IMG/VR virus record: IMGVR_UViG_3300042301_002383
Coordinates: 3,322 to 67,321 of that record
Direction: 5' to 3' (one strand)
Length of the DNA: 64,000 nucleotides
Origin: a virus
Taxonomy: Duplodnaviria; Heunggongvirae; Uroviricota; Caudoviricetes
The translations under genes and the position numbers were made by a program. Positions 3,352-50,360 of this stretch are shown piece after piece; the stretch's first letter is position 1, and each line of letters opens with the position of its first letter. The notes under the pieces were generated by a model. The model saw only the letters and a list, made by a program, of their open reading frames with translations. It was not told the origin of the DNA and did not search any database.

Positions 3352-3352
3352 T

Positions 3353-3550: not shown

Positions 3551-3556
3551 AATTTA

Positions 3557-3658
3557 TGGAAATGAATATTTTATATTATTTATCATTGGGATTTGGGGTT
3601 ATAGTAACCTTCCTGATAATGATTGTATTACTTATTTTATCAATTAAAAAATCAATAG
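3557..3658 (+). CDS. possible 33-aa hydrophobic peptide (MEMNILYYLSLGFGVIVTFLIMIVLLILQLKNQ)
   Basis: hand-translated; single predicted TM helix; below the ORF-track cutoff; coordinates approximate. Confidence 0.25.
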
Positions 3659-3661
3659 AAA

Positions 3662-3934
3662 ATGGCACAGACCCAAACGACATTTAACTTTCATTTAGAC
3701 ACAAAGGTAACGACATGGTATCGTACCGAATTTGAAATTGAAGCTGAAACATTGGAAGAGGCTCATAAGTTAGCAATTGCTTTTCGTGAGAGAGGTGATA
3801 ACACGGAATTGCCGTGGGAACATATTGACGAAACTCTTGAAGGTTTAATACCCGAAGAAAATGGTGGAGAACCTACGGAGGAGTTGTATGACGAGAATGG
3901 TAATATAATTTGGGATAACACTAAATCAATTTAA
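3662..3934 (+). CDS. hypothetical acidic protein
   Basis: 90-aa ORF. Confidence 0.55.
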   Translation: MAQTQTTFNFHLDTKVTTWYRTEFEIEAETLEEAHKLAIAFRERGDNTELPWEHIDETLEGLIPEENGGEPTEELYDENGNIIWDNTKSI

Positions 3935-3935
3935 A

Positions 3936-4250
3936 ATGGAAAATTCAGAAATCATTAATCGTATTACGGACATCTTAAAAGTTAATGGATGTTTTAGTAT
4001 TGGAGAATTAGAAGGTGAGAATAGTATTCTTGTTGGTACATTGGGTAACTATGTAGGACTTGGGGAATATTTTACCGAAGATTATGTAGAAGTAAATGTG
4101 TACGAACCTCGTTCAAGTAGTTCGGACGCTATCGACACCTATGAAGAAAGTTATTGGGAGTTGAATGAGAATGTGTTGGGAGATGTATTACTTTTATGTG
4201 AGCAGTGGGAAGCTGAGTGTATTAGAACAGAAAAGAGAATATCGAATTAA
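3936..4250 (+). CDS. hypothetical acidic protein
   Basis: 104-aa ORF, 1-nt spacing from previous gene; terminator follows. Confidence 0.55.
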   Translation: MENSEIINRITDILKVNGCFSIGELEGENSILVGTLGNYVGLGEYFTEDYVEVNVYEPRSSSSDAIDTYEESYWELNENVLGDVLLLCEQWEAECIRTEKRISN

Positions 4251-4280
4251 TAGTTTTTAGTGTGTGGTTAGTGAATAAGA

Positions 4281-4308
4281 AGGTGGACAGAAATGTTCAC
4301 CTTTTTTT
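4281..4308 (+). terminator. rho-independent terminator
   Basis: GGTGGACA-gaaa-TGTTCACC + TTTTTTT. Confidence 0.65.
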
Positions 4309-4329
4309 ATGTATTACCCTCAGCGCAAA

Positions 4330-4450
4330 CACAGCCCGGACCAGCGCTGAAGTTTACTGGGGTGTCCCAGTAATTATTGGAGATATGATCTGCAGCGTGA
4401 TCTGCTGTTGTATTACCCCAGTAAACATGAGCATTGTTGCGCGCATGCGC
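4330..4450. repeat. intergenic module (CAGCGCTG + GAAGTTTACTGGGGTGTCCCAGTAAT + GTATTACCCCAGTAAACATG + GCGCGCATGCGC)
   Basis: seen directly. Confidence 0.6.
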
Positions 4451-4469
4451 TAACTCAAAAAAATATTTA

Positions 4470-4511
4470 AAAATAAATTTGGATTATAAAAGTATTAGTT
4501 GTATATTTGTG
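4470..4511 (+). promoter_or_regulatory. Bacteroidetes-type promoter
   Basis: AAAAATAAATTTGG ... TATATTTG before ATG 4532. Confidence 0.6.
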
Positions 4512-4531
4512 TACACTAAAAAAACAACACT

Positions 4532-4735
4532 ATGGTAAAAGTTTATTTCGAATTGGATAACGGCAAATATGCTGAACTGGTAGCAATCTTCGATGATGAA
4601 GAAACCTACGATGCGTGTCTACCCGCATTGGAAAAATTGTGTAAAAAAAACAATTTTGATTTGGTAACAGAATCGGTGGACGAAGAAACAATTACTCACT
4701 ACACTAAAAAATCAACAAATGATTTACACTACTAA
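4532..4735 (+). CDS. hypothetical small protein
   Basis: 67-aa ORF. Confidence 0.5.
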   Translation: MVKVYFELDNGKYAELVAIFDDEETYDACLPALEKLCKKNNFDLVTESVDEETITHYTKKSTNDLHY

Positions 4736-5477
4736 AGCTCAAGCAAAAAGATTAACTGGGATATCTTATTTAGGTTCCGTTAATATGACGACCAAACATC
4801 AGAAGGCATTCAAGTACGATGAACTAACATATAGTTTGTACTTAGCACCTGCAAAAATGAGTGGCTACGAGGTTTGTCCTATGAGAACGAAAGAATGTAC
4901 AAAGTTATGTTTGAACGAATCAGGGATGAACACGATGAACATGGAGGACGATAAAATTAATCGTTCACGAATTGCAAAAACTAAATTGTTTTTTGAACAC
5001 AGGGAATTTTTTGTCAATTGGTTGTTTGATGAAATTAAATCAACAGAATTGAAAGCTAAAAAACTGGGGTATAAATTTTCGGTTCGTTTGAATAACACAT
5101 CAGATATAACACCTGAATCATTTTATATTCATGTAAATGATAAACCCGTTAATATTTTACAATACTTTCAACACATTCAATTCTACGATTATACAAAGGT
5201 TCCTAAAAGAACTGAACTACTTAAAAAATATAAGAACTACGATTTAACTTTTTCTTATAGCGGTCACAATTTAAATGAGTGTCATACAATGTTAAATAAT
5301 AACATAAGGGTGGCGGTTGTTTTTAATAAAGTACCTAAAACATTTTGGGATAGGAAAGTAATCGACGGGGATCTTTACGATATGAGGTATAAAGATAAAA
5401 AGAATGTAATCGTTGGACTCAAATATAAACGAGTTCGAAATAAGTTAACAAAGAATAAATTTGTTATTGAACTTTAA
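4719..5477 (+). CDS. hypothetical protein
   Basis: 252-aa ORF overlapping previous gene by 17 nt; Cys-containing, basic C-terminus. Confidence 0.55.
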   Translation: MIYTTKAQAKRLTGISYLGSVNMTTKHQKAFKYDELTYSLYLAPAKMSGYEVCPMRTKECTKLCLNESGMNTMNMEDDKINRSRIAKTKLFFEHREFFVNWLFDEIKSTELKAKKLGYKFSVRLNNTSDITPESFYIHVNDKPVNILQYFQHIQFYDYTKVPKRTELLKKYKNYDLTFSYSGHNLNECHTMLNNNIRVAVVFNKVPKTFWDRKVIDGDLYDMRYKDKKNVIVGLKYKRVRNKLTKNKFVIEL

Positions 5478-5484
5478 TAAATGT

Positions 5485-5511
5485 CCTCACCGAAAGGTGG
5501 GGATTTTTTTT
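5485..5511 (+). terminator. rho-independent terminator
   Basis: CCTCACC-gaaa-GGTGGGG + TTTTTTTT. Confidence 0.65.
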
Positions 5512-5519
5512 GCACATTC

Positions 5520-5650
5520 TTCCGACGCAGCGCGCAACAGCGCTGAAGTTTACTGGGGTAATCCCAGTAATGTTTAGCCAGTTTTGCAGATCATGCGCCG
5601 ATCAGATCCGTATTACACCCCAGTAATGTTTAGGATTATGCATGTCGCCG
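5520..5650. repeat. intergenic module (CAGCGCTG + GAAGTTTACTGGGGTAATCCCAGTAATGTTTAG + GTATTACACCCCAGTAATGTTTAGG)
   Basis: seen directly. Confidence 0.6.
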
Positions 5651-5675
5651 GCAAATATTTTTAAAAAAAGTTTAA

Positions 5676-5714
5676 AATAAATTTGGTGGGTAATAAAAAA
5701 GTATTATCTTTGTA
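5676..5714 (+). promoter_or_regulatory. Bacteroidetes-type promoter
   Basis: TTTAAAATAAATTTGG ... TATCTTTG before ATG 5745. Confidence 0.6.
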
Positions 5715-5744
5715 CTATAATATTAATCACAAAAAAAATCTATT

Positions 5745-6197
5745 ATGGGAACTCGTTCAACTTACCGCATCATTGAGGAATACTCAACAGGTAAAAAAGT
5801 AAAAAAAGTAAAACAGAATGAAATCTGTTTAATCTATCGTCAGTACGACGGATACCCAACAGGTCATCCACTTGAAACCGCTGAATGGTTATCAACAGGG
5901 AAAGTCGTTAATGGGTATGGTGCTAATGAAAAGAAATTAGTATTCAACGGGGCTGGTTGTTTAGCGGCTCAACTCATTTGGAAATTAAAAGCTGGTGAAA
6001 CAGGAAACACCTATGTACAATCTTTGTCAAGTCGTGGAAATTCTTGGGAAGATTATCTTTATGACATTATTGTCAAAGAAGATTATTCGATTGAGTTTGT
6101 TTGTTATGAGAACGATACAACTAAAACTGAATTGTTTCGTGGTACTCCAAGCGCATTTGTTAAAAAATATAAAAAAGAAGAAGTTGAGAAAGCATAA
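5745..6197 (+). CDS. hypothetical protein
   Basis: 150-aa ORF. Confidence 0.55.
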   Translation: MGTRSTYRIIEEYSTGKKVKKVKQNEICLIYRQYDGYPTGHPLETAEWLSTGKVVNGYGANEKKLVFNGAGCLAAQLIWKLKAGETGNTYVQSLSSRGNSWEDYLYDIIVKEDYSIEFVCYENDTTKTELFRGTPSAFVKKYKKEEVEKA

Positions 6198-6231
6198 AGT
6201 TAGATTCAATCTCGGAAAGGGAGAGAATTAT

Positions 6232-6555
6232 ATGAAATGGAAAATAGAATATAACAACGGCTGGGTGAAATATTTTCATCCAGCTGAAGTTCAGTTAATA
6301 CTAACTGATTGCGTTCTGAAAAACAACAGGACAGCAGCGCAGAAGATATTTACTGGGGAAACCACCAAAGTCGTTTGTGCTTATGTTCTTTGTGAGGGAA
6401 TTGAAATCCTTACAGAAGATTTTATTCCTGAAACAACTGCACATTTAAAATACAATCCAAGAGTATTACCCTTTTGGAATTTAAACGGACAGAATGCTGA
6501 CGGAAGCGAGTACAAAGAATTGTTTACGATTGATAGTAAACTTTTCATAAAATAA
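6232..6555 (+). CDS. hypothetical protein
   Basis: in-frame ATG (MKWKIEYNNGW...) inside track ORF 5995..6555, whose 5' part overlaps 5745..6197 out of frame; purine-rich stretch just upstream. Confidence 0.5.
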   Translation: MKWKIEYNNGWVKYFHPAEVQLILTDCVLKNNRTAAQKIFTGETTKVVCAYVLCEGIEILTEDFIPETTAHLKYNPRVLPFWNLNGQNADGSEYKELFTIDSKLFIK

Positions 6556-6589
6556 TTTGGTAAAATAAAATTAAAGTTATATCTTTGTA
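6550..6589 (+). promoter_or_regulatory. Bacteroidetes-type promoter
   Basis: AATAATTTGG ... TATCTTTG before ATG 6618. Confidence 0.55.
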
Positions 6590-6617
6590 TTATTAATTCA
6601 CACTTAAATTTAAAATC

Positions 6618-7100
6618 ATGGGATTAGACATGTATCTGTACAAAAAAACTTATGTACAAAATTGGGAACACAACCCACCTGAACAACATCACCAAATCGA
6701 AATCAAACGAGGGGGTGTATTACGAACCGACATCAAACCAAATCGTATTTGTTACATTACCGAACAGGTAGCATATTGGAGAAAGTTCAATGCGCTTCAC
6801 GGATGGTTTATTAATAATTGTGGTGGTGGGGTTGATGAGTGTCAAGACATTTCTGTTGATGAAGAAAAATTGAAGGAGTTGTTGGAAACTCTAAAAGAAG
6901 TTAGTTCTAATTTCACTAAAGCTGATGAGCTTCTTCCACCAACACAGGGTTTCTTCTTTGGTAGTGATGAGGTTGATGAGTATTACAAAGAAGAAGTAAA
7001 CTCAACTATCAAAATCATTGAGGACTTGTTAGAGGAAAACGAACAATCTAAAGAATATGGATTGTACTCTGGTGAGTTTGAATACAGAGCTTCTTGGTAA
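6618..7100 (+). CDS. hypothetical protein
   Basis: 160-aa ORF, acidic C-terminus. Confidence 0.55.
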   Translation: MGLDMYLYKKTYVQNWEHNPPEQHHQIEIKRGGVLRTDIKPNRICYITEQVAYWRKFNALHGWFINNCGGGVDECQDISVDEEKLKELLETLKEVSSNFTKADELLPPTQGFFFGSDEVDEYYKEEVNSTIKIIEDLLEENEQSKEYGLYSGEFEYRASW

Positions 7101-7117
7101 AATAAAATAACGGGGAT

Positions 7118-7155
7118 ATTATTTGGAATAATAGTATCCCTGTTATATCTTTGTC
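7118..7155 (+). promoter_or_regulatory. Bacteroidetes-type promoter
   Basis: ATTTGG at ~7122, TATCTTTG at ~7146-7153. Confidence 0.55.
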
Positions 7156-7174
7156 AAATATAAATCATACTACT

Positions 7175-7825
7175 ATGCCAAATTGGTGCTACAATCACCT
7201 TACTATAAAAGGTGAAAAAGAAAACTTGGACAGAATTAAATTTCATCTTGAAGATATTGAAAAGAAGGATGATTCGTCCCCTGGTGTTTTTATGGCTCTC
7301 GTCGGTCGTGACCACGCTATTGAGTTAAATGAATACGAACACGGAGGATGGTACGACGCCAACATTAATTACTGGGGCTGTAAGTGGGATGTGTCATACA
7401 ATGAGTCGGGTGTCGAGTATAGTGACGATTCAATAACAATGTCACTCCAAACAGCTTGGTCACCACCAATAAAGTTCATTCAACACTTGGGTAGGTTATT
7501 CAATGTGGAGTGTGAGTTATATTATGAAGAACCAGGTTGTGACTTCTGTGGTAAATCCTACTTCAATAATGAGGATGGATTAACGGAGGAGGATTATTCA
7601 TATGATGAAGGTAGATTTGTTTTCGACAAGGATAATTTCTTTGAGAGCTGTGATGGTGACATTGACTATCTGTTCGAGTGTGATGAAGAAGTAACATTCG
7701 AGTCGGTGAAGGAGAGGTTTCCATTTATTACTGGGGAAGAAGACCTTGAGACATTAGAAGAAATTTTTAACGAAGTAAAAGAAAATTATGGAGAAGAAGC
7801 TGAAAGTAACAACGAGCAAATTTAA
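7175..7825 (+). CDS. highly acidic Cys-containing protein (DNA-mimic / anti-defence candidate)
   Basis: track ORF 7151..7825 starts on TTG inside the -7 box; first ATG (MPNWCYNHL...) at 7175; long D/E-rich C-terminal half. Confidence 0.55.
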   Translation: MPNWCYNHLTIKGEKENLDRIKFHLEDIEKKDDSSPGVFMALVGRDHAIELNEYEHGGWYDANINYWGCKWDVSYNESGVEYSDDSITMSLQTAWSPPIKFIQHLGRLFNVECELYYEEPGCDFCGKSYFNNEDGLTEEDYSYDEGRFVFDKDNFFESCDGDIDYLFECDEEVTFESVKERFPFITGEEDLETLEEIFNEVKENYGEEAESNNEQI

Positions 7826-8045
7826 AAATCCACTTACATTTAATGAGTGGGTAGAGAAGTATAAGGTGTCAAGCCAATATGTAGAACCAACTAAATACTT
7901 TCAAGGTAATGCTGGTTCCCCAAGAATTACTATGGACACCAAGATGGAATTCGATTCGAGTTTCCACAGACGGGATGGTAACAAATTTACTGGGATTTTA
8001 AACAAATTAAAAACAAAAATAAAATGGGTAGAGAAAATCGTTTAA
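7788..8045 (+). CDS. hypothetical protein
   Basis: 85-aa ORF overlapping previous gene by 38 nt. Confidence 0.4.
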   Translation: MEKKLKVTTSKFKNPLTFNEWVEKYKVSSQYVEPTKYFQGNAGSPRITMDTKMEFDSSFHRRDGNKFTGILNKLKTKIKWVEKIV

Positions 8046-8506
8046 CAGGGGGAGTATTCACTGAGATTGTGGGTACCCGAGATAGAATCAGTTCGTATGA
8101 TCGTTTCCTTAATGTGGACATCGATTTAAGTATTCCTCACACCGATGAGCTGGTGAAGTACTGTAATCAGTATAAGAACAGCATCCGTATGATGAAGACC
8201 AACTTCGAGATGTTAGCCAAGTTAGAAGAAATCATTATGCAACTCCGTTCTAAGGAATCAGTGGCTGATGAAATCAAACTGTCTTTGGTTCGTGAGTACA
8301 TCTACGCTCGAGCTCTATTCTATAGAGAGGGTAAAGGTACTAAGGACATTCGAGTTATCGTCGGGAAGACAGATGTGCACGGGACGGACATAGATTTACT
8401 GGGTAACAGTGTGGAGTTTATGGACTTAGCAAAGGAGAAGTTGTTAAAGGCTATGGACCTTGAGATTGATGAGAATGTTAAAGTTCTAAAAAATATTCTA
8501 GCATAA
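8024..8506 (+). CDS. hypothetical protein
   Basis: 160-aa ORF. Confidence 0.55.
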   Translation: MGRENRLTGGVFTEIVGTRDRISSYDRFLNVDIDLSIPHTDELVKYCNQYKNSIRMMKTNFEMLAKLEEIIMQLRSKESVADEIKLSLVREYIYARALFYREGKGTKDIRVIVGKTDVHGTDIDLLGNSVEFMDLAKEKLLKAMDLEIDENVKVLKNILA

Positions 8507-8562
8507 TTTGGAATATTCGAACATAAGTATTAATTTCGTATTACACTTAAACTATTAATCAT

Positions 8563-8886
8563 ATGAATTACTCTCAAGAGTTATCAAAGCTCCGTGATAT
8601 CATTCACCGAGATATCGTCCACAGAACCGTTAGGCTTAATCAAGGGGATGATTTTGAATTAGAATTAACCAGCCCGTTTTCGGTGTGGTTTACCCAAAAC
8701 TTCGACGATGACTACCAAGTCAAAGTTGCTGTTATAGGAATATGTGGTACCACAGGTGAGTTAATCACTCGAGGTATTACAGAGGATGGTTATGGTGACC
8801 TATACTATAACGATCTTACAATGGAACAGTTAGTATTCCTCCACAGACAAATCGAAACAGAATCATACACAATAAAAGTAATTTAA
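8563..8886 (+). CDS. hypothetical protein
   Basis: 107-aa ORF. Confidence 0.55.
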   Translation: MNYSQELSKLRDIIHRDIVHRTVRLNQGDDFELELTSPFSVWFTQNFDDDYQVKVAVIGICGTTGELITRGITEDGYGDLYYNDLTMEQLVFLHRQIETESYTIKVI

Positions 8887-8887
8887 A

Positions 8888-9454
8888 ATGGAAAAGATTT
8901 ATTTAGGATCAGAAGTTATGGTATCGGACCCTTATTACAGTGTCCCTACCTGGTGTCAGCATAAGTTGACAAATGTATTACCTGGTGAGTACTCCTCCAC
9001 AGCATTCAAATCGGATGACACAGGTGGTTGGGGTATGAGATGCGCAGCACTCGTTGCTGTCCATAAAGATTATGTTGAGGATGAATTAGCTTGGAGGACC
9101 GTTACATCATCAACAATTGGTGTTGACTCGGGTCAATGTGGGATATTCGATGTGGAGTCCTACAGGAATGATACCATTGCTGATGAGATAACAGCTCCTG
9201 AGTTGGGCTTTATGTTACCGTGTGATAGTGAGGGAGATAAGTGGTATGAGAAGATGTGCAGATTAACCTCAGCAGATCAACAGTGGGGATCATACAATAC
9301 TGGGGTGGTATCATCTTCAGGTTGTGGAGATGGTTCCTATCGACTTTTAGTAGCAAAACATAAGGGAAAGATAGTAGGAATCGCAATCGATTACCTAATG
9401 TTTAACCTGAAATCCATTCACTTCAATATGATTAAAACTGAAGAATTTGTTTAA
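8888..9454 (+). CDS. hypothetical Cys-rich protein
   Basis: 188-aa ORF, 1-nt spacing from previous gene. Confidence 0.55.
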   Translation: MEKIYLGSEVMVSDPYYSVPTWCQHKLTNVLPGEYSSTAFKSDDTGGWGMRCAALVAVHKDYVEDELAWRTVTSSTIGVDSGQCGIFDVESYRNDTIADEITAPELGFMLPCDSEGDKWYEKMCRLTSADQQWGSYNTGVVSSSGCGDGSYRLLVAKHKGKIVGIAIDYLMFNLKSIHFNMIKTEEFV

Positions 9455-9512
9455 GGGCTTGTTATTAGTCCTTAAACACCGTACCTTTGCGGAATTAACA
9501 AATAAAAAACAG

Positions 9513-9701
9513 ATGAAAAAGATTCACAGTAGAATTCAGCTCTCACCCAATGGTAAGTATTGGGAACGATGGGAGTCGACCGACAGAATCAATTGGAAGA
9601 TTACTCACGGACGAATGTCCTTAGAGGAGGCTCTTAAGAAACAGCAAGCCGTACTCATCCAAAATCACAGAAATCTTCTATCCGACATCCTCAGGAGGTA
9701 G
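9513..9701 (+). CDS. small AP2-like DNA-binding protein (tentative)
   Basis: internal ATG (MKKIHSRIQLSPNGKYWERWES...RMSLEEALKK) of track ORF 9447..9701; the NGK-W...LEEA pattern resembles AP2/integrase-type DNA-binding domains. Confidence 0.4.
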   Translation: MKKIHSRIQLSPNGKYWERWESTDRINWKITHGRMSLEEALKKQQAVLIQNHRNLLSDILRR

Positions 9702-9704
9702 AAG

Positions 9705-9960
9705 GTGGTACAAGTTTACTGGGGAATAAACAACAGCATATGAAAAAGTTCTTAAAAGAATTAGATTGGGTGTGGGATTACTACTTTGCAATATTCCTCT
9801 ACAACGGGAATAAGGTTTATAGGTACCATGAGTATATGACCAAGAAGTGGGGAGAACGGTATACCAACAGTGGGACCTGATCAAGGACTCGGAACATTAC
9901 TGGGGTGATTCACCTCAGGACGGGCAAAGATGGTACATGTTTACTGGGGTAAAATAGTTT
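9705..9960. repeat. three direct TTTACTGGGG copies (~9712, ~9897, ~9941) around a small ORF and between two AP2-like genes
   Basis: seen directly. Confidence 0.5.
9740..9883 (+). CDS. possible 47-aa protein (MKKFLKELDWVWDYYFAIFLYNGNKVY...)
   Basis: hand-translated, below ORF-track cutoff; flanked by TTTACTGGGG repeat copies; coordinates approximate. Confidence 0.3.
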
Positions 9961-10027
9961 GTGTAATATTTTTTTATTTGAATTTATTTTGTTATATTTT
10001 TATATAAACATTTAAATTTAAACACAA

Positions 10028-10213
10028 ATGAAAAAAACAACATCCCGTCGCACCACAGTTACTACATATGTTCCTGTGTCTGACAACATCTATCATGATG
10101 GTTCATCTTACCGTGTACGTGTAAGTGTTAATGGTACTAAGTACTCTAAGAATTTCTCTAGCAAGAGAAAGGCAGTACAGTTCCGTAACGAATTATTCTC
10201 TAAACAAGGATAA
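10028..10213 (+). CDS. small basic AP2/Arm-like DNA-binding protein (tentative)
   Basis: 61 aa; SSYRVRVSVNGTKYSKNFSSKRKAVQF resembles AP2 / integrase Arm-type beta-sheet DNA-binding domains. Confidence 0.5.
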   Translation: MKKTTSRRTTVTTYVPVSDNIYHDGSSYRVRVSVNGTKYSKNFSSKRKAVQFRNELFSKQG

Positions 10214-10237
10214 TTCCACACTTAGACTTGCATTAAG

Positions 10238-10270
10238 AGGTTCCACCACAATGGAACCTTTTTTTTTTAT
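10238..10270 (+). terminator. rho-independent terminator / attenuator
   Basis: AGGTTCCA-ccacaa-TGGAACCT hairpin + TTTTTTTTTT, between 10028..10213 and the next gene. Confidence 0.65.
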
Positions 10271-10280
10271 ATTTATTTGT

Positions 10281-11171
10281 ATGGGAAAATTTGTAAACAA
10301 ACTAGACTACGAGAGATTCGTGAAGAGTCTGAAGGGACCTTTGAAGTCATTAAATGGTGAAATATATTATGTTGCATCGGATACTCTTAGTAGTTTTGGA
10401 TGTTTCTTGAATATTGTAATACGTGAGACTCAGGTCCAACCTGATATAATATTTAAGTTGATGACCGAGCTTGCTGAGAAGTTCAAGCCTATGTATGACG
10501 AGTACATGGATCAATATGGTAGTGGGATGGGTGGAACCATGGTGAGGATCAAGGACCTATTACTTACTGGGGGATTAGATGAATTCATTGGAATTAATTT
10601 AAATAGTTCTATGGACAGTGTATTACCCGTGGAAAAACTTCAATGGGTTAAAGAAGTTCGTCAAGTAAAAACTATAATGACTTTTCTTGAAGACCCCGTG
10701 GGATTTAGATCAGTAATGGAACTTGACGACACCACCTTGGAAAGGGTTAATAGGAGTCTGAAGCAACTACAGTCTCAGAAGAACGTTCCACATAACCTTC
10801 AGGTTCATCTTGACTTCATTGAAGAGGGAACCTTTGATTTAGATATTTCCAATGGAACCAATATTTCAAACAACTTTATTAAAAATATTTACTATAAACT
10901 CCCCGAGAATATTAAACTTAAGTTTGTATGTGTTCCAGGGAACCACAACAAGATTACTGGGATGCTCGACTTCGATTGGAAATCAATCTATGTAGAATTT
11001 CCTTTATCACCTGAAGTAGGTAGAATCGTGAGAGATACCATTAGTTCAGTTTTATCAGATAAGATTAAAGAAATTCTTAAATCAAACGATTTAACCCCCG
11101 TTAACTTTTCGAGTAACTCAACCCATTATGATAAAGCCTATTTCAACTTTAGTTTTAAATGGGTAGGGTAG
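10281..11171 (+). CDS. hypothetical protein
   Basis: track ORF 10125..11171 overlaps previous gene and runs through the terminator; first ATG after the T-run (MGKFVNKLDYERF...) at 10281. An ATG at 10251 inside the hairpin is the alternative. Confidence 0.5.
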   Translation: MGKFVNKLDYERFVKSLKGPLKSLNGEIYYVASDTLSSFGCFLNIVIRETQVQPDIIFKLMTELAEKFKPMYDEYMDQYGSGMGGTMVRIKDLLLTGGLDEFIGINLNSSMDSVLPVEKLQWVKEVRQVKTIMTFLEDPVGFRSVMELDDTTLERVNRSLKQLQSQKNVPHNLQVHLDFIEEGTFDLDISNGTNISNNFIKNIYYKLPENIKLKFVCVPGNHNKITGMLDFDWKSIYVEFPLSPEVGRIVRDTISSVLSDKIKEILKSNDLTPVNFSSNSTHYDKAYFNFSFKWVG

Positions 11172-11230
11172 ACTATATTACGGGGTTCCTACGGAACCCC
11201 TTCATCCCGTACTTATTGTACTATACTAAG

Positions 11231-11261
11231 AACCCTTCGGAAAATCCCTAAGGGTTTTTTT
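11231..11261 (+). terminator. rho-independent terminator
   Basis: ACCCTT-cggaaaatccct-AAGGGT + TTTTTTT; preceded by perfect hairpin GGGGTTCC-tac-GGAACCCC at ~11181-11200. Confidence 0.55.
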
Positions 11262-11369
11262 AATTCCCATAGGATTATTCTAAGATTATCCTGAAGGGGA
11301 CCGAAGGTCCCCGTATAATAATCTGTAAAGTAAATCCCTTACAATATGTAAAGTGCCAAACAAAATGTA

Positions 11370-11450
11370 TCACCCCAGTAATATTAAAGTTGTTTGGCAA
11401 ACTATTTCCCATAGGTGGGTCACCCCAGTAATGTTTGTATTACGGTTCAG
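11370..11450. repeat. two inverted-orientation CACCCCAGTAATRTT copies inside the non-coding hairpin region
   Basis: TATCACCCCAGTAATATTAAAG ... GGTCACCCCAGTAATGTTTG. Confidence 0.5.
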
Positions 11451-12042
11451 GGATTATAGACGTATCACATTAGGACCGTATAAAAGTATTATGAGTATAC
11501 TCGGGGACCTTCGGTCCCCTTCATCCTGTATTACGAGTATTCTATTATACGGGGACACTTCGTGTCCCCTTCAGGGGGAACCTTAGGGACCGATGTATGA
11601 CACATTAATATAATATATAAAGGGTTATACTAAGACACTTGTATGACAGGGATGAAGGGAGGACTCGAAGAGTCCGACCGTAATATATAATGATATTAGG
11701 GGTATATTCTGGTAGAAAAAATAAAATGGTCTGTGATTCGCTCACGGGTCAATCCCCAGGGATATTCCTAGTAAGTGGGAAAAAGTGTTATTTTGTGGAT
11801 AAAATATACCAGAACCCAAAAATGGGATAAAAAAAGATAGTTTTAGATATATTAATTGATCACGATAACCGAACGGTAAAAAACACCGAAAAATATACGG
11901 ATATTACCGTTATAAACAGGAAAAAATTCGGGGTAAAATAAAACCCCTATGGAGGGGTTCTTAGGGGTAATTTTATAGGGGGTAATTGTACGGTCGTGAC
12001 TCCTGTCGGAGACCACGACCTTCAGAGACCTTCATGAATAAT

Positions 12043-23151: not shown

Positions 23152-23829
23152 TTATAATCTATAAACAATAGTATCTGAAAAATCTTTTTCGTTTTTTGTT
23201 TCAACTTCTTTTTCAAATCTATGTATGTGTTCTTTCATATCGTCATCGATATCAATATCAATAACCTCACCTCCATTATTAACAAACTTATCAATTTCTT
23301 TTACAATAATATTAATTAAGTCTTCGTTATAATCACTGTACCATTCACCCTCAACCCATCTTTCTTCTAATAAACTATGCATGTATCTTTCAAATCTAAA
23401 GCAATCCGATTGTGATATTTTCCAACATCTTTGTGCTACGATTCTGATTGGTGTGTGAGTCTTGGTTCCTTTTCTTCCTGAACTAATTTCTCTTTGTAGT
23501 TGCTTCATTCTATCCTCAACATCAAATGCAATTCCTATTTTTTTATCAGGAAAAACCCATTTAAAATTTTCAGGTCTTTTGTTATCATGTTTATCAACAT
23601 ACGTTGCAACATATAGAAATGTTAGAATATCATTTCTAAAAAATTCACTGTCTCTTGGTGTTGGGATGCATCCCTTTTCAAAATCTCTTTTTTCTGATAC
23701 TCCACTATAGTGGTCTTTTTTGTGTCTGTAAAATTTTTTATTTATTTCTTTTTCTAACTCTTCTAAGTTTTCTTCTTTGATGATAAATTGTTTAGTTAAA
23801 TCTAATTCATTAGTTTCATTTTGATTCAT
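23152..23829 (-). CDS. hypothetical protein
   Basis: 225-aa ORF. Confidence 0.55.
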   Translation of the reverse strand: MNQNETNELDLTKQFIIKEENLEELEKEINKKFYRHKKDHYSGVSEKRDFEKGCIPTPRDSEFFRNDILTFLYVATYVDKHDNKRPENFKWVFPDKKIGIAFDVEDRMKQLQREISSGRKGTKTHTPIRIVAQRCWKISQSDCFRFERYMHSLLEERWVEGEWYSDYNEDLINIIVKEIDKFVNNGGEVIDIDIDDDMKEHIHRFEKEVETKNEKDFSDTIVYRL

Positions 23830-25778: not shown

Positions 25779-26291
25779 TTAGATTTTAATATAACTAATC
25801 CCACCTTGGGTCCCCTTCAAAGAGTTACTATATCTTTGTTCTGCGTTTTCTCTTTTAACTAACTTACCATTCTTATGATAGATAGCCCACTTCCATTCTT
25901 TGGTTGGTTTATATCCAGGTCCTTTCCAATGTGGATGTGCACCTTTTTCGTACTTCTCTAACTTATCGATTACCGCTTCTAACACATAATCATCCGACAC
26001 CTCCAAGTATCTCATACCAGGATATATCTTATCTCTTTTTGGACAATTATACATTACAGCATAACTACAATCTAAAGATATATCTAAGTCTTCATTACTT
26101 CTTGCACTAATCAATATTGCAAGTTGATCACCGGTTGTGTCGATTACCTTTTTAGTTTCCCTTGGGAGGTACTCAATTAATTTACTAATGTTTCCACGGT
26201 ATTCTCTAACCGCCTCTTGTCTTGTTTCGAATATCTTATCAGGTATTCTACCATCTAAGAGTTCTACTTTGTATTGTTTGTTTACTATCAT
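25779..26291 (-). CDS. hypothetical protein
   Basis: 170-aa ORF. Confidence 0.55.
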   Translation of the reverse strand: MIVNKQYKVELLDGRIPDKIFETRQEAVREYRGNISKLIEYLPRETKKVIDTTGDQLAILISARSNEDLDISLDCSYAVMYNCPKRDKIYPGMRYLEVSDDYVLEAVIDKLEKYEKGAHPHWKGPGYKPTKEWKWAIYHKNGKLVKRENAEQRYSNSLKGTQGGISYIKI

Positions 26292-26845
26292 GATTTATAA
26301 AGTCTATTGTGATTGTACAATGCGACAGGATTTTCCTCCGCAATAATTCCGTATTCTTTCATCACATTTTCATATATGACGTTTTTATCTTCATTAATGT
26401 ACTTACCAATAATGTTAACAAACCCATAGTTTGACTCATCAACTTCACCTTGTTGAGTTCCTGGTAATCCACAGTACAATGCCTCCCCAACCTCGCTGAT
26501 GAACATCCCAGAATAGAACCCAAGTAGTCCAAAGACATCAACAAACTTATCAGCATTACACCAAATAAAGACACTGTTGTCCTTTTCTTTTAAAAGTGGT
26601 ACCATTGATTGGTCGATGATATAACCTCCGTATTTTGCACCACAATTATCAAATTGACCTATTGAGAATAGACCACCTGGACTGCCATGACCCATCATCA
26701 TTACACGGTCGTGTTCTTTAATTAAGTTCATAACATCCATCTTACTACAACCACCTTTGACAACGGTTTTATTTGGAATGTTTTTATAAACTATATCAAG
26801 AAACGTAGTCGACTCATCCGCCGGATGTATTATTAAAGTTTTCAT
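26288..26845 (-). CDS. hypothetical protein
   Basis: 185-aa ORF. Confidence 0.55.
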   Translation of the reverse strand: MKTLIIHPADESTTFLDIVYKNIPNKTVVKGGCSKMDVMNLIKEHDRVMMMGHGSPGGLFSIGQFDNCGAKYGGYIIDQSMVPLLKEKDNSVFIWCNADKFVDVFGLLGFYSGMFISEVGEALYCGLPGTQQGEVDESNYGFVNIIGKYINEDKNVIYENVMKEYGIIAEENPVALYNHNRLYKS

Positions 26846-27222
26846 TATTCTATTTTTGATTTGATTTCTTGGAATACTCCATCAGCCACCTCTCTATATT
26901 CATCATACTGTTGGTACCTATCTTGAAATGTTTCCAATGAGTGGATAATAGTTGTATGGTCTCTATTTAAAATTTTACCGATGTGTTTTAAAGTGTGACC
27001 AAACTCTCTTTTCATAACCGCAACGAAAATAAATCTAGCATCGATTACTTCTCTATCTCTAACTCTTGATAATATTTGGGAAGCGGTGACACAGCAGTTC
27101 TTAGCAACTATATCGAGTATTTCGTCTTTTGTTATTCTATCTCTTTTAAACCTTTTTAATTTTTTATATTCATCGGTATTTTTCATACCGGGGTAAACAT
27201 AGGGACTGATGTTCTCTATCAT
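26845..27222 (-). CDS. DnaA domain IV-like (DnaA C-terminal HTH) protein
   Basis: 125 aa; VIDARFIFVAVMKREFGHTLKHIGKILNRDHTTIIHSLETFQDR matches the DnaA C-terminal DNA-binding signature (...IAMYL.REL...SL..IG..FG.RDHTTV.HA); no AAA+ domain. Confidence 0.7.
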   Translation of the reverse strand: MIENISPYVYPGMKNTDEYKKLKRFKRDRITKDEILDIVAKNCCVTASQILSRVRDREVIDARFIFVAVMKREFGHTLKHIGKILNRDHTTIIHSLETFQDRYQQYDEYREVADGVFQEIKSKIE

Positions 27223-27239: not shown

Positions 27240-27276
27240 TACAAATATATATGGTTTTTTAGAATATTCCAAAAAT
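27240..27276 (-). promoter_or_regulatory. minus-strand promoter (TTTTGGAATATTC ... TATATTTG)
   Basis: minus reads TTTTTGGAATATTCTAAAAAACCATATATATTTGTACTCTAAAACAATAAAACATG (ATG = 27222). Confidence 0.6.
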
Positions 27277-27279: not shown

Positions 27280-27516
27280 TTAGAAATTCCCAAATAAAAA
27301 TTGGTAAACCACCTCGGGTATTTGGGTACAGATTGATTGTGCACCCTGATTGTCAGTACATTCAATATGTGGTAAATTCTTAATATAACCCCTCATATAT
27401 TTTGGAGCTCTGTTTAATCTACCAACAATATAGTCTCTTGGGTATAGTTTATCAGCTTCATAAAATCCTTCTGATATAACTCTTTGGTACTGAGACTCAC
27501 TTACAATTACTTTCAT
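27280..27516 (-). CDS. hypothetical protein with V-I-V-S-E-S-Q-Y N-terminus
   Basis: 78 aa; MKVIVSESQYQRVISEG. Confidence 0.5.
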   Translation of the reverse strand: MKVIVSESQYQRVISEGFYEADKLYPRDYIVGRLNRAPKYMRGYIKNLPHIECTDNQGAQSICTQIPEVVYQFLFGNF

Positions 27517-45957: not shown

Positions 45958-46932
45958 TTAATTTTTATGAGATTTCAAAACTTTTTGTGATTCAATATAA
46001 TTGTCAATAAAGTTTATTCGTTGACCAATCCAATACATCACATTGACTGTCATAGAGTTACCAATTGCACCTTTAACACTTGAATACGATGGTTTCTTAC
46101 CAGCAACTTCAAAGTCTAAATAACCGTCTGGAAATCCTTGGAGTCTCTCCAATTCTCTTTCTGTGAAGGTTCTAATACTATCATTATCAATCCAATAGTT
46201 AGATGTGGATACTTTACCAAATCCATCAACTAATGTTTGTGCATATGATTTGGTTACTGTACCTGCGAGTTTAATTTCTCCAAGAATATTTCTGGCGTAC
46301 TCATCCCTCTTGATTCTATTCTTTTCTTTAACGCTTTCAAAACATCCTTCTTCAAATAATACGGAGAATGGGACTTTCCAATTGTTTCCACGATATCCAA
46401 CAATGAAGATTCTTTTGCGTCGTTGGGGAACTCCGAAGTATTGGCTGTCGAAAACCCGATAAGCGATTGAGTATTCTTCTCCTTGGACAACTCCTTGTTT
46501 GTCGAGGTTTTCGACTTGGAAGTTAGTACCGGTGAAAGAGGAGATGATTTCACACAACGCTCTTCTGTGTTTTTTCTTAAAAACGCCTTCGACATTTTCC
46601 CAAACGAACCATCTTGGTCGTTTGTCTTTAAGAATTTCTCCATACTTAAGGGAGAGTTGACCACGGATATCATCCATTCCTTCGTTGAGTCCTGCATCGG
46701 AAAAAGATTGACAAGGCGTTCCTCCGACCAATACGTCGAAGTTGATGTTTTTGTAGACTGCATAGTCGTTTAGTTTAGTTAAATCTGAAAATAAGGGAAC
46801 GTTGGGGTAGTGATGTGATAAGACTTTTTGTGGGAAAGAGGCGAAGTCACATAAACCTTCACACTCCCAACCTAATGGTGACCAAGCCACGGTTGCGGCC
46901 TCGATTCCACTACATACTGAGAAATATTTCAT
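45958..46932 (-). CDS. DNA (cytosine-5)-methyltransferase (Dcm-like)
   Basis: 324 aa; motif I FSVCSGIEA, motif IV GGTPCQSFSDAG, motif VI FVWENVEG. Confidence 0.8.
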   Translation of the reverse strand: MKYFSVCSGIEAATVAWSPLGWECEGLCDFASFPQKVLSHHYPNVPLFSDLTKLNDYAVYKNINFDVLVGGTPCQSFSDAGLNEGMDDIRGQLSLKYGEILKDKRPRWFVWENVEGVFKKKHRRALCEIISSFTGTNFQVENLDKQGVVQGEEYSIAYRVFDSQYFGVPQRRKRIFIVGYRGNNWKVPFSVLFEEGCFESVKEKNRIKRDEYARNILGEIKLAGTVTKSYAQTLVDGFGKVSTSNYWIDNDSIRTFTERELERLQGFPDGYLDFEVAGKKPSYSSVKGAIGNSMTVNVMYWIGQRINFIDNYIESQKVLKSHKN

Positions 46933-48464: not shown

Positions 48465-50360
48465 TTAAAATGGAAGTGGTCTTCTCACCTCTTCTTGAAT
48501 CAATTCATCGATTCTTCTTGGTTCCCTATGTTCAGACATCACCTCAATACCATTTATTTTAATTGGTACCTTTTTCTTATCTAATGAATGTAGAATACCC
48601 ATCCTCGCATAGATTTTAGTTTTTTCCTTTAACTTATTAACCGCCATTTCAATATCTGCGGGTGGTTGGTTATTACAAAAATGTCTAGCTTGGATTAGAT
48701 TACCTGTTTGACAATCAAATTCACAGGTAACTCTATCTTGTTTATTTTCAGTTCTTATGGAAATAATTATTGATTTTTCTTTATCAGAATACGACGCAAC
48801 ACAATGGTGCATGAACCTACCTTCTTCATCATAATCCACTTCACGTTTCAATATGTATGGATAGAATGTAATGTCCCCAAATTCATCATCACCTAAATTT
48901 ATTTTTAAATCAATAGGTAATTCAATATCTGATATCATTTTATTTGAAAATTGATATTCAACTTCCCAACCCTTTTTAATCAATTTCATCATCTTAGATA
49001 CCTCATGATGTTCATCGTTAAACTCATTAATGTGTTTTGATTTTAAATGTAAATCAGGTATATACTCACGTAATTTCCCAATCATTCTAAAATGATCGTG
49101 TAAATCACCAATAAATCTCTCATTAATAATTGTTTCCTTTTCACTAGTTAATCTTACATATCCTTTATTTTCTATTTTTAAACTATTAATAATTTTCACA
49201 ATATTTTCTTTTTCAATATTGGTTATTAGAAATTTTTCTTTTTTAAATTCTTTCTCAAAGTTAAATTTAGAAACTCCAAAATTATTTGAATTCTCATATC
49301 TTGAATTCATAAAATGAATAGGGTCGATACTACCAATATATTTTGAATAGTTGTCACCAAAATAATAACATAATCTAGCCAATGACTGTATATCAATTTT
49401 ACTATTTTCATGCATTATTTTAATTGTGATTTTAGACTTAATCCCGAACATATCTAAAATGGACGCTATAAGTTTTCTATCGTTTTTCTTTAGAAACTTT
49501 TCCGTTGGGTAAAATATCTTAATCCAATAACTGTAATCGTTACAAATTTTAATCTTTTTTAATTCAACAAAACGTTCTAACATTAATTGTGCAAACCATA
49601 TTCCGTTGAATGTTATATTTTGTTGATTTAAATTAAAAACATCATTTAAAACTGACACAAATTTTTTATTATCGAACGTTTGATTGTGTTCATCCAAAAG
49701 AACCGAATTCTTATCCAATGGTTTACGCATCTCAATAATTCCACCATCCCTAAATGATTGTTCTAAATAATTGAAGTTGTTGGTCCTAAAAGTTTTGGTG
49801 GTTTTTTTACCAACCTTAGTCATATTAAGTGTTGTGAAATTACCCGTAACCAGGTTAAAGGTAACCGAAGTAACACTCATTGATTTTTTAAAATAGATAC
49901 TATTAAATTGTCTATGTTTATGTTGACGATAGATTTTAATTGTAACTTTATCACCATGTCGTCTGATGGAACGTTCGATTGCATTTACTGTAATCTCACT
50001 AAATGGATTACCGTAATGTCTTTTGATATGTCTATCGTTTCTTGTTTCAAAATTGTAGATTGCATAATTCATACTGACTCTTTCACCAATATCAGAATCA
50101 CCATAAAAATATCTTGTCTTTCTTTTATCTATCTGTTTATGAAAGTCAACCATTCGACCAACTTTAGGTCTTCTTAATTCCCCAAGACGAATAGTAAGTT
50201 TCTTTGTTGGGGTGGTTACTTGAGTTAAATCCTCCTCAAAGTCAAAAAAATCTAAATCATCGTTAAAATTGGTGACTTCTTTCTTGTCCCCAATTTTACA
50301 ATAATCCTTAAAAAGGGTAATGGTGGCATAGTTGAATTTTTGGGTTATTACGTCTTCCAT
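48465..50360 (-). CDS. large hypothetical protein (paralogue B)
   Basis: 631 aa; LASILDMFGIKSKITIKIMHENSKIDIQSLARLCYYFGDNY vs LPSVLDHYGIKSKYLIGELNKQNTNKSVKLDSLNYICKLFGDNY in paralogue A; C-terminal FMHHCVASYSDKEKSII...CEFDCQTGNLIQARHF. Confidence 0.6.
   Translation of the reverse strand: MEDVITQKFNYATITLFKDYCKIGDKKEVTNFNDDLDFFDFEEDLTQVTTPTKKLTIRLGELRRPKVGRMVDFHKQIDKRKTRYFYGDSDIGERVSMNYAIYNFETRNDRHIKRHYGNPFSEITVNAIERSIRRHGDKVTIKIYRQHKHRQFNSIYFKKSMSVTSVTFNLVTGNFTTLNMTKVGKKTTKTFRTNNFNYLEQSFRDGGIIEMRKPLDKNSVLLDEHNQTFDNKKFVSVLNDVFNLNQQNITFNGIWFAQLMLERFVELKKIKICNDYSYWIKIFYPTEKFLKKNDRKLIASILDMFGIKSKITIKIMHENSKIDIQSLARLCYYFGDNYSKYIGSIDPIHFMNSRYENSNNFGVSKFNFEKEFKKEKFLITNIEKENIVKIINSLKIENKGYVRLTSEKETIINERFIGDLHDHFRMIGKLREYIPDLHLKSKHINEFNDEHHEVSKMMKLIKKGWEVEYQFSNKMISDIELPIDLKINLGDDEFGDITFYPYILKREVDYDEEGRFMHHCVASYSDKEKSIIISIRTENKQDRVTCEFDCQTGNLIQARHFCNNQPPADIEMAVNKLKEKTKIYARMGILHSLDKKKVPIKINGIEVMSEHREPRRIDELIQEEVRRPLPF

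What the first reader, a model, noticed from the sequence alone, without database searches (positions are those of the whole stretch)
26845..27222. Stand-alone DnaA domain IV (DNA-binding HTH) protein
125-aa protein matching only the C-terminal DnaA-box-binding domain (...IFVAVMKREFGHTLKHIGKILNRDHTTIIHSLETF...) with no AAA+ domain, driven by its own promoter. Such a protein could occupy host DnaA boxes to shut off or redirect host replication initiation, or recruit host DnaA or helicase loading to a phage origin.
Basis: partly seen in the sequence, partly recalled or inferred. Interest (0 to 1): 0.6.

Follow-up and report, generated by a model that had tools for sequence, protein, structure and literature searches.

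The report
Phage stand-alone DnaA-box-binding domain protein

Summary
ORF 26845-27222 (minus strand, 125 aa) matches Pfam Bac_DnaA_C well above threshold. Its predicted fold superposes on DNA-bound DnaA domain IV crystal structures (rmsd 1.3-1.4 A). It has no AAA+ part and has its own conserved Bacteroidota-type promoter. It belongs to a large, almost exclusively stand-alone family (3,327 clusters at 50% identity; typically 95-160 aa). Close relatives are found only on viral contigs, up to about 350 kb. Two things are conserved down to about 30% identity: the residues that read the DnaA box in E. coli DnaA (R399, R407, R432-T436, H439 equivalents), and a non-DnaA N-terminal peptide, I-S-P-Y-V-[YF]-P-G-[LI]-K. 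Canonical DnaA boxes are not enriched in the window, around 58 related phage genes, or as clusters. Local phage iterons differ between lineages while the reading head stays fixed. I therefore favour a "headless DnaA" that occupies host DnaA boxes (confidence 0.4). The rivals are an accessory phage-origin factor (small-phage relatives sit in replication modules) and a GafY-like transcription factor. The class is already annotated (Cellulophaga, Olleya and Pelagibacter phages), so novelty is modest. Side finding: the co-conserved, stop/start-overlapping 185-aa neighbour is a minimal caspase-like (clan CD) protease.

The parts
26845..27222 (-). ORF of the stand-alone DnaA domain IV protein (125 aa; the end coordinate includes the stop codon)
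   Evidence: purifying selection
27181..27210 (-). N-terminal motif ISPYVYPGMK (residues 5-14). It is not part of DnaA, is disordered in the model, and is the hallmark of this subfamily.
   Evidence: Conserved in 153 diverse members (P7 120, Y8 122, G12 135 of about 146). The strict pattern is found only in DnaA_C ORFs (29/29). pLDDT is below 50 for residues 1-11. Coordinates checked.
26908..27135 (-). DnaA domain IV core (residues 30-105)
   Evidence: Pfam match 33-97; hhalign 30-100; Foldseek superposition
27052..27066 (-). Basic loop R53-V-R55-D-R57. R55 is the equivalent of E. coli R399, the minor-groove arginine.
   Evidence: Alignment to 1j1v; R55 present in 147/153 members
26938..26964 (-). 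Recognition helix start RDHTTIIHS (residues 87-95), equivalent to E. coli R432-D433-H434-T435-T436...H439
27242..27273 (-). Bacteroidota-type promoter: TTTGGAATATTC (extended, near-palindromic -33), 20 nt spacer, TATATTTG (-7); 19 nt upstream of the ATG
   Evidence: (conserved in 5 loci)
26288..26845 (-). Co-conserved downstream gene (185 aa) whose ATG overlaps the DnaA_C stop (TAATG). Predicted minimal clan-CD (caspase-like) cysteine protease. Membership in the same functional unit is inferred from synteny only.
   Evidence: Synteny; fold; junction sequence
27280..27516 (-). Conserved upstream 78-aa gene of unknown function (syntenic in the closer relatives); context only

Best explanation
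The gene encodes a 'headless DnaA': a monomeric DnaA-domain-IV helix-turn-helix with an intact DnaA-box reading head, preceded by a basic helix and a flexible N-terminal peptide (ISPYVYPG[LIM]K). It is transcribed by host RNA polymerase from a host-type promoter and binds 9-bp DnaA boxes (TTATCCACA-like). It has no AAA+ and no domain I, so it cannot oligomerise into an initiation filament, melt DNA or load helicase. On the host chromosome (oriC, the dnaA promoter and other DnaA-regulated sites) it would therefore act as a competitive occupant that blocks or rewires host DnaA function during infection. The N-terminal peptide would serve as a docking or self-association element. Shown: the domain, the fold, the conservation of the reading head and of the N-terminal motif, the promoter, the viral-only distribution of close relatives, and the lack of DnaA boxes in sampled phage DNA. 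Inferred: actual DNA binding, box specificity, the host chromosome as the target, early timing, and the physiological consequence.
For: (1) Domain and fold. (2) The reading head is conserved. R55 (=R399) is present in 147/153 members, R63 (=R407) in 153/153, D88 in 135, H89 in 150, T90 in 104 (+33 Ser), T91 in 130 and H94 (=H439) in 104 of 153. In 16 lineages, R407, RDHT[TS] and H439 equivalents are present in all and R399 in 15. In GafA, which binds other DNA, the R399 and T435 positions have changed to E8 and S43 (PMC9638019). (3) The target is probably not nearby phage DNA. DnaA boxes are at chance level in the window, in related jumbo loci and in 58 non-redundant phage loci with no perfect box. 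There are no iterons at the gene. The iterons of small-phage relatives differ by lineage, are unlike DnaA boxes and in one case lie inside a separate initiator gene. An invariant reading head with variable local repeats fits an invariant target such as the bacterial DnaA box. (4) It has a host-type promoter of a recurrent class. (5) Outside the reading head it is the fastest-diverging gene of its syntenic block (32-74% identity vs 75-95% for the neighbour), as expected for a host-interaction gene. (6) Nothing above 40% identity was found in one genome per 185,579 bacterial and archaeal species; close relatives are on viral contigs only. (7) Precedent that mobile-element proteins interfere with DnaA-dependent initiation: prophage YfdR (PMC4776307).
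Against: There is no experimental or direct computational evidence of DNA binding or of a host target, and the host genome is unknown. P423, a base-contacting residue in E. coli DnaA by my recollection of Fujikawa et al. 2003 (paper not held), is Lys here and variable, so specificity could be shifted. Distant relatives consistently lie in phage replication modules, which also fits a role in phage replication. The conserved N-terminal motif has no explained role in a pure decoy model.
Confidence: 0.4

Rival explanations
1. Accessory origin-recognition factor for phage replication. The protein binds sites at the phage origin and, through its N-terminal peptide, recruits a phage or host replication protein (helicase, loader, primase), or marks the origin together with host DnaA.
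For: In independent small-phage lineages the homologue lies within 1-5 genes of replication and recombination genes: Erf directly downstream in 27 loci, plus DnaB-like helicase, primase-helicase, primase and exonuclease. Cultured examples are similar: phi19:3 gp013 lies near a DnaC-like protein and RecT, and HTVC035P gp24 lies next to a nuclease and an annealing protein. Authors of the pelagiphage study proposed a role in initiation (PMC8477408). In the window a DnaQ-like exonuclease lies 1.7 kb upstream. A conserved disordered N-terminal motif suits a recruitment peptide.
Against: There is no DnaA-box enrichment or cluster near any of 58 non-redundant genes, in the window or in related jumbo loci. 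None of 229 viral loci with paired perfect DnaA boxes encodes a DnaA_C ORF. The iterons that do occur nearby vary by lineage while the reading head does not, and in L136 they lie inside a separate replication-initiation gene. In the jumbo lineage no helicase, primase or polymerase was found among the immediate neighbours or the large ORFs scanned, or among the called genes within +/-10 kb in relatives.
Confidence: 0.25
2. Phage transcription factor of the GafY/GafA type. The DnaA-like HTH is used as a promoter-binding module that activates or represses phage (or host) genes, possibly contacting sigma or RNA polymerase through the N-terminal peptide, and possibly recognising the near-palindromic extended -33 element TTTGGAATATTC of the phage promoter class.
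For: GafA carries an N-terminal DnaA-like DBD needed for GTA promoter activation, and in Hyphomicrobiales this is a separate small gene (PMC9638019). GafY binds about 20 promoters and contacts RpoD domains 3-4 (PMC11150451). One family member is a sigma-70 fusion with two DnaA_C copies (P0170). The promoter class has a conserved near-palindromic extension beyond the generic -33 TTTG that some factor may read. In L014 a perfect DnaA box replaces that element in the neighbour's promoter. DnaA itself is also a transcription factor (my own knowledge).
Against: GafA has lost DnaA-box-reading residues (E8 for R399, S43 for T435) whereas this family keeps them. There is no GafZ or sigma-like partner; the conserved neighbour has a caspase-like fold. 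NCBIfam small DnaA_C-like families score only 17-22 bits against cutoffs of 136-181. The Sigma70_r4 similarity is insignificant (E=0.13). The extended -33 element matches the DnaA-box complement at only 6 of 9 positions (my comparison). The L014 box is a single case at chance frequency.
Confidence: 0.2
3. Non-specific or architectural DNA-binding protein, or a decaying remnant of a captured dnaA gene without a specific function.
For: The protein is small and basic. Nothing in the sampled DNA identifies a target.
Against: There is strong purifying selection. The family comprises thousands of stand-alone clusters with a fixed length and two conserved motifs. The promoter and synteny are conserved. 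Base-specific contact residues are retained.
Confidence: 0.05

Closest known systems
Domain IV (DNA-binding domain) of bacterial DnaA, e.g. E. coli DnaA 374-467 (PDB 1J1V) and M. tuberculosis DnaA-DBD (3PVP/3PVV)
   Same: Same Pfam family (PF08299) and same helical fold with basic loop and HTH (rmsd 1.3-1.4 A on the model). The same residues occur at the R399, R407, R432-T436 and H439 positions.
   Different: Only about 18-30% identical. It is not attached to domains I-III, so there is no ATP binding, filament formation or helicase recruitment. The P423 equivalent is Lys. It carries an extra basic helix and the N-terminal ISPYVYPG[LIM]K peptide, which are absent from DnaA.
Annotated stand-alone DnaA_C proteins of cultured phages: Cellulophaga phage phi19:3 gp013 (131 aa), Olleya phage Harreka_1 gp24 (145 aa), Pelagibacter phage HTVC035P gp24 (173 aa) and other HTVC010P-type phages; PHROG 27829 'DnaA-like replication initiation protein'
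   Same: Phage-encoded, short, PF08299 only, function untested.
   Different: About 30% identity. The cultured examples lack the N-terminal [ST]PYx[YF]PG motif and lie in replication and recombination modules of 34-76 kb genomes. This one is in a jumbo phage, next to a caspase-like protease. Its best PHROG is 16091 (unknown function).
GafA N-terminal domain and GafY, activators of gene transfer agents in Rhodobacter and Caulobacter
   Same: A DnaA-like HTH detached from the AAA+ machinery and used by a phage-derived element. GafY is a separate small protein encoded just upstream of its partner gene.
   Different: GafA and GafY have diverged at DnaA-box-reading positions and bind GTA promoters. 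Their partner is GafZ or a sigma-like domain. No significant sequence relationship was shown here.
Mobile-element inhibitors of host replication initiation: E. coli prophage YfdR (binds DnaA), phage 77 ORF104 (binds DnaI), lambda P (sequesters DnaB)
   Same: Under the preferred model the outcome would be the same: interference with host initiation by a small phage protein, often encoded in or near replication modules.
   Different: Those act by protein-protein binding. This one would act by competing for the DNA sites, a mode for which I found no characterised phage example in the searchable literature.
Hda (my own knowledge)
   Same: A natural truncated DnaA homologue that regulates initiation.
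   Different: Hda is the converse truncation: AAA+ only, with no domain IV.

Membership tests
Pfam PF08299 Bac_DnaA_C (DnaA domain IV) | Profile score at or above the curated gathering threshold | tested here: met
   56.2 bits vs 31.5, E=3.6e-15, profile positions 2-67 of 69; hhalign 98.2% to E. coli domain IV
Pfam PF08299 Bac_DnaA_C (DnaA domain IV) | Helical fold with basic loop and helix-turn-helix, superposable on solved DnaA DBDs | tested here: met
   AlphaFold model pLDDT 80.8; Foldseek 3pvp and 1j1v target-TM 0.90-0.92, rmsd 1.3-1.4 A. This rests on a predicted, not solved, structure.
Pfam PF08299 Bac_DnaA_C (DnaA domain IV) | DnaA-box contact residues (E. coli R399, R407, D433, H434, T435, H439; P423) | tested here: met
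   R55, R63, D88, H89, T90 and H94 are present and conserved in the family. The P423 equivalent is K79 and is variable.
Pfam PF08299 Bac_DnaA_C (DnaA domain IV) | Sequence-specific binding to the 9-bp DnaA box | not testable with these tools
   Needs EMSA, DAP-seq or ChIP-seq
Chromosomal replication initiator DnaA (TIGR00362) | AAA+ domain III with Walker A/B, and the N-terminal domain I | tested here: not met
   125 aa in total. TIGR00362 scores 54.2 bits vs cutoff 343.9 and covers only model positions 336-429. No credible P-loop ORF anywhere in the window. Not a DnaA.
GafY/GafA-type GTA activators | DnaA-like HTH encoded with, or fused to, a GafZ or sigma-like partner | tested here: not met
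   The conserved downstream partner has a caspase-like fold. No sigma-like domain is present (Sigma70_r4 E=0.13).
GafY/GafA-type GTA activators | Interaction with RpoD or omega and binding to specific promoters | not testable with these tools
   Described in PMC11150451 and PMC9638019; no multimer prediction or binding assay was available here
NCBIfam PRK06030-type small DnaA_C-like proteins | Score at or above the curated cutoff | tested here: not met
   22.0, 17.9 and 16.8 bits vs cutoffs 148, 181 and 136
Iteron-binding phage replication initiators (lambda O-like logic) | Repeated binding sites (iterons or DnaA boxes) in or next to the initiator gene | tested here: not met
   No repeat family at or near the gene. 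DnaA boxes are at chance level.
T4 AsiA anti-sigma factor (weak phmmer hit) | Homology to AsiA | tested here: not met
   phmmer E=0.008, but hhalign probability is 2.6%
Anti-phage defence system components (PADLOC) | Match to any defence-system model | tested here: not met
   No hit for the protein or 6 of 7 neighbours; one marginal PbeC hit at E=7e-4 on the 174-aa ORF

The most novel reading that the evidence does not exclude
The DnaA_C protein and the overlapping, co-conserved 185-aa caspase-like protease form a two-gene host-takeover cassette. The headless DnaA homes to host DnaA boxes at oriC and, through its N-terminal ISPYVYPG peptide, docks or activates the protease so that the host initiator or orisome is cleaved on site. 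That would be DNA-site-targeted proteolytic shut-off of host replication.
Probability: 0.06. Interest if true: 0.85.

Novelty: new member of a known kind. Interest (0 to 1): 0.4.

Why it matters
Stand-alone DnaA DNA-binding domains are common in phages: thousands of sequence clusters, from about 35-kb pelagiphages to about 350-kb jumbo phages. They are routinely labelled 'DnaA' or 'replication initiation', yet none has been tested. If they are decoys for the universally conserved DnaA box, they would represent a widespread, host-range-independent way for phages to silence or rewire chromosomal initiation and the DnaA regulon. They would also provide a ready-made tool for blocking initiation in non-model bacteria such as Bacteroidota. 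If instead they are origin factors, they would define a minimal initiator architecture consisting of a DNA-binding domain plus a 10-residue recruitment peptide. The conserved N-terminal motif gives a concrete handle for finding the partner.

Tried and rejected
1. T4 AsiA homology suggested by phmmer was rejected by hhalign (2.6% probability).
2. DnaA-box enrichment or clusters in the window, related jumbo loci and 58 phage loci: none found.
3. Iterons at the gene: none.
4. A split DnaA with an AAA+ partner nearby: no P-loop ORF and no Pfam hits on neighbours.
5. Defence or anti-defence membership: no PADLOC hits.
6. Near-identical DNA in cultured phages: none.
7. RNA families in the window: none; no tRNAs.
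8. The search for related loci with the diverse alignment A3 failed because it had no conserved stretch; A1 was used instead.
10. Fujikawa et al. 2003 is not in the library. Contact residues are cited from Sherlock & Fogg 2022 and from my own knowledge.
11. Whether PRK06030 equals the GafY family could not be verified, so it is not claimed.
12. The upstream copy of the TTTGGnAATTTCTAAA element is the coding sequence for the last residues of the 78-aa gene, so I do not interpret it as a second operator.
13. The third homologous-protein search was not spent, because one search already gave the architecture picture.

Full report
OBSERVATION. Pfam Bac_DnaA_C (PF08299) matches residues 33-97 at 56.2 bits against a gathering threshold of 31.5; nothing else passes. 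phmmer against PDB sequences finds E. coli DnaA domain IV (1j1v, E=4.5e-6) and the C-terminal ends of Thermotoga and Aquifex DnaA. Profile-profile comparison of the family with E. coli residues 374-467 gives 98.2% probability. An AlphaFold model built on 22 family members (pLDDT 80.8, pTM 0.70) has helices at 16-29, 32-43, 47-51, 57-72, 78-85, 89-105 and 107-124. It superposes on the DNA-bound DBDs of M. tuberculosis and E. coli DnaA with target-TM 0.90-0.92 and rmsd 1.3-1.4 A. There is no AAA+ module: the full-length DnaA model TIGR00362 reaches only 54 bits (cutoff 343.9), using model positions 336-429. No credible P-loop ORF exists in the 64 kb. The reading frame is under purifying selection: nucleotide differences by codon position are 5/3/29 and 20/12/53 against two orthologues.

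PROMOTER AND HOST. The 57-nt spacer upstream of the ATG is better conserved than the flanking coding sequence in four related phage lineages. It reads TTTGGAATATTC-N20-TATATTTG, with 19 nt between the -7 box and the ATG. This is the -33 TTTG / -7 TAnnTTTG architecture of Bacteroidota sigma-A promoters (my own knowledge). The same pattern recurs about 16 times in the window, immediately upstream of start codons on the correct strand. The extended, near-palindromic -33 element is significantly over-represented: 17 matches against 4.2+-2.2 expected. So 'its own promoter' is supported. The host is probably a Bacteroidota, consistent with the nearest cultured-phage hits being Cellulophaga and Olleya phages. 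The sigma-70 consensus scan found nothing above chance.

GENOME CONTEXT. The window has no near-identical relative among cultured phages, no tRNAs and no Rfam hits. Its recognisable genes are thymidylate synthase, glycosyltransferases, NT5C nucleotidase, a dTDP-sugar epimerase, a DnaQ-like exonuclease, a T5orf172 nuclease, a C5 methylase, a PcfJ-like protein and DUF932; most ORFs are orphans. Orthologues of the protein lie on contigs of 213-351 kb and on IMG/VR viral contigs of up to 335 kb. The element is therefore a jumbo phage. A gene block is syntenic in the closer lineages: a 345-377-aa protein, a 77-78-aa protein, the promoter, DnaA_C, then a 181-186-aa protein. In this window and its closer relatives the last gene starts at or within a few bases of the DnaA_C stop codon; here the junction is TAATG. 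In more distant relatives it has its own copy of the same promoter type.

THE FAMILY. The word-indexed search finds 21 close clusters, all 118-132 aa and PF08299 only. The exhaustive HMMER search of 1.84 billion representatives finds 3,327 with E<=1e-3, and 137 of the 150 listed are 170 aa or shorter. Of the 13 that exceed 180 aa, most are tandem arrays of two or three DnaA_C domains (the rest carry N- or C-terminal extensions), and one is a sigma-70 with two C-terminal DnaA_C copies. Nothing above 40% identity was found in one genome for each of 185,579 bacterial and archaeal species; the close family is viral. In 153 aligned members, down to about 30% identity, two blocks stand out. The first comprises the equivalents of the E. 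coli residues that contact the DnaA box: R55 (=R399) 147/153, R63 (=R407) 153/153, R87-D88-H89-T90-T91 (=R432-T436) 128/135/150/104(+33 Ser)/130, and H94 (=H439) 104. The mapping comes from the HMMER alignment to 1j1v. The roles of R399/S400 (minor groove), T435 (base-specific) and R442/K443 (backbone) are as restated in PMC9638019; the rest is my own knowledge of Fujikawa et al. 2003, which the library does not hold. The second block is an N-terminal peptide, I-S-P-Y-V-[YF]-P-G-[LI]-K, with no counterpart in DnaA. It is disordered in the model (pLDDT <50 for residues 1-11). In six-frame translations of all DNA fetched up to that point, it occurs only in DnaA_C ORFs (29 of 29). Relaxed forms (NPYIYPG, SYYVMPG, SYWTVPS) head the small-phage members. 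The three cultured-phage homologues lack it.

WHAT IS ALREADY KNOWN. Stand-alone DnaA_C genes are annotated as 'DnaA protein' in Cellulophaga phage phi19:3 (gp013, 131 aa) and Olleya phage Harreka_1 (gp24, 145 aa), and as 'DNA replication initiation' in HTVC010P-type pelagiphages. Du et al. [quoted passage not shown] PHROGs holds the family as phrog_16091 (unknown function, E=1.7e-9) and phrog_27829 ('DnaA-like replication initiation protein', E=7e-4). I found no experimental study of any phage member. The closest characterised relatives in concept are GafA and GafY. These have a DnaA-like HTH, separate from any AAA+ domain, that activates promoters of gene transfer agents. GafY is a small stand-alone protein that contacts RpoD.

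TESTS THAT DISCRIMINATE BETWEEN MECHANISMS.
(a) DnaA boxes in phage DNA. With one mismatch allowed, TTATCCACA gives 40 sites against 31.6+-5.5 expected in the window. The relaxed consensus TTWTNCACA gives 8 against 13.2. Perfect boxes number 3 in 153.7 kb of window plus related jumbo loci, against 2.0 expected. In 58 non-redundant phage loci around DnaA_C genes there are 216 sites against 212.5 expected, no perfect box and no real cluster.
(b) There are no iterons at or near the gene.
(c) Gene neighbourhood in distant relatives. An Erf-type annealing protein is directly downstream in 27 loci. DnaB-like helicases, a primase-helicase, a primase, exonucleases and a C5 methylase lie within 1-5 genes in at least four lineages. 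This is a replication-module signature.
(d) Those modules have their own iteron-like repeats 2-3 kb away: AAGCATATG x4 inside a separate 'replication initiation protein' gene in L136, CAAATGCA in L129 and L142, and TTGTCAAA after the primase-helicase in L140. The repeats differ between lineages and none resembles a DnaA box. Meanwhile the reading-head residues of the DnaA_C proteins are the same in all 16 lineages compared.
(e) None of 229 viral loci (2.0 Mb) that carry paired perfect DnaA boxes encodes a DnaA_C-type ORF.
(f) In its syntenic block, DnaA_C is the fastest-diverging gene: 74, 62, 52, 54, 38 and 32% identity in six relatives, where the downstream gene keeps 75-95% and the upstream 375-aa gene 55-80%.

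INTERPRETATION. An invariant DnaA-type reading head, in phages whose own repeats vary and whose sampled DNA lacks DnaA boxes, is best explained by a target that is itself invariant: the bacterial DnaA box. A domain-IV-only protein cannot build an initiation filament. On host DNA it would therefore act as a competitive occupant of oriC and of DnaA-regulated promoters. I put this 'headless DnaA decoy' first, at 0.4. The replication-module context of distant relatives keeps an accessory origin or recruitment role alive (0.25). That context is equally typical of phage genes that subvert host replication. The GafY precedent, the sigma fusion and the unexplained palindromic -33 extension keep a transcription-factor role alive (0.2). 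A functionless remnant is unlikely (0.05). The three active models are not mutually exclusive, because DnaA boxes also sit in promoters. What is shown: domain, fold, conserved motifs, promoter, distribution, and absence of boxes or iterons in the sampled DNA. What is inferred: DNA binding, specificity, the host as target, timing and consequence.

REJECTED LEADS. The phmmer hit to T4 AsiA (E=0.008) does not survive profile comparison (2.6% probability). No defence-system model matches.

VERDICT. This is a real gene with a correctly identified domain, and it is a member of an already annotated but functionally untested class. The subfamily-defining N-terminal motif and the invariant reading head are new, testable details. 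The mechanism is plausible but unproven. Interest 0.4.

Noticed in passing
[not shown]
   Followed up: partly
window 428-11426 (+ strand gene arm): The motif CCCCAGTAA/TTACTGGGG occurs 19 times against 0.31 expected. It forms 8-bp palindromes (TTACTGGG-N3-4-CCCAGTAA) in the intergenic regions just upstream of each promoter of the left arm and is essentially absent from the rest of the window. These could be terminators, processing sites or operators of one transcription class.
   Followed up: partly
window 11172-12042: An 870-bp non-coding zone between convergent gene arms is packed with GC-rich hairpins, several with TTCG loops (e.g. GGGGACC-TTCG-GGTCCCC). It also contains one perfect DnaA box (TGTGGATAA at 11794). 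There is no Rfam match.
   Followed up: partly
window, e.g. 13163-13132(-), 21637-21606(-), 24831-24800(-), 27273-27242(-), 30653-30622(-), 34799-34769(-), 54599-54568(-); left arm 537-7153(+): A recurrent Bacteroidota-type promoter class has an extended, near-palindromic -33 element (TTTGGAATATTCAAAA; 17 matches vs 4.2 expected). The palindromic extension suggests a dimeric regulator.
   Followed up: partly
L014 5972-5980: In a 213-kb relative, a perfect DnaA box TTATCCACA replaces the usual GAATATTC part of the promoter between the DnaA_C gene and the protease gene. It is a single case, and box frequency overall is at chance.
   Followed up: partly
proteins P0086, P0091, P0092, P0101, P0107, P0119, P0143, P0145, P0160, P0168, P0170: Some relatives are tandem arrays of two or three DnaA_C domains without an AAA+ domain. 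One (P0170, 590 aa) is a sigma-70-like protein followed by two DnaA_C domains, which resembles the GafA domain logic.
   Followed up: no
L136 8888-9060 (also L135, L149): In small phages with DnaA_C followed by Erf, four AAGCATATG repeats lie inside a separate 229-aa 'primosomal/replication initiation' gene, a likely iteron origin within its initiator gene. Other lineages carry different repeats (CAAATGCA, TAAAGGAA, TTGTCAAA).
   Followed up: partly
genome loci L032, L035, L036, L040 and many others: Dozens of Pelagibacterales genomes and single-cell assemblies carry a 30-37% identical match covering query residues 9-100 or 20-100. I did not determine whether this is dnaA itself, a prophage gene or a chromosomal stand-alone copy.
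   Followed up: no
window 23152-23829 (-), 45958-46932 (-), 48465-50360 (-), 1129-1989 (+): A T5orf172/MUG113 nuclease-like gene, a C5 cytosine methylase, a 631-aa protein with a PcfJ-like domain and a DUF932 protein. These are typical mobile-element accessory genes in the same arm.
   Followed up: no
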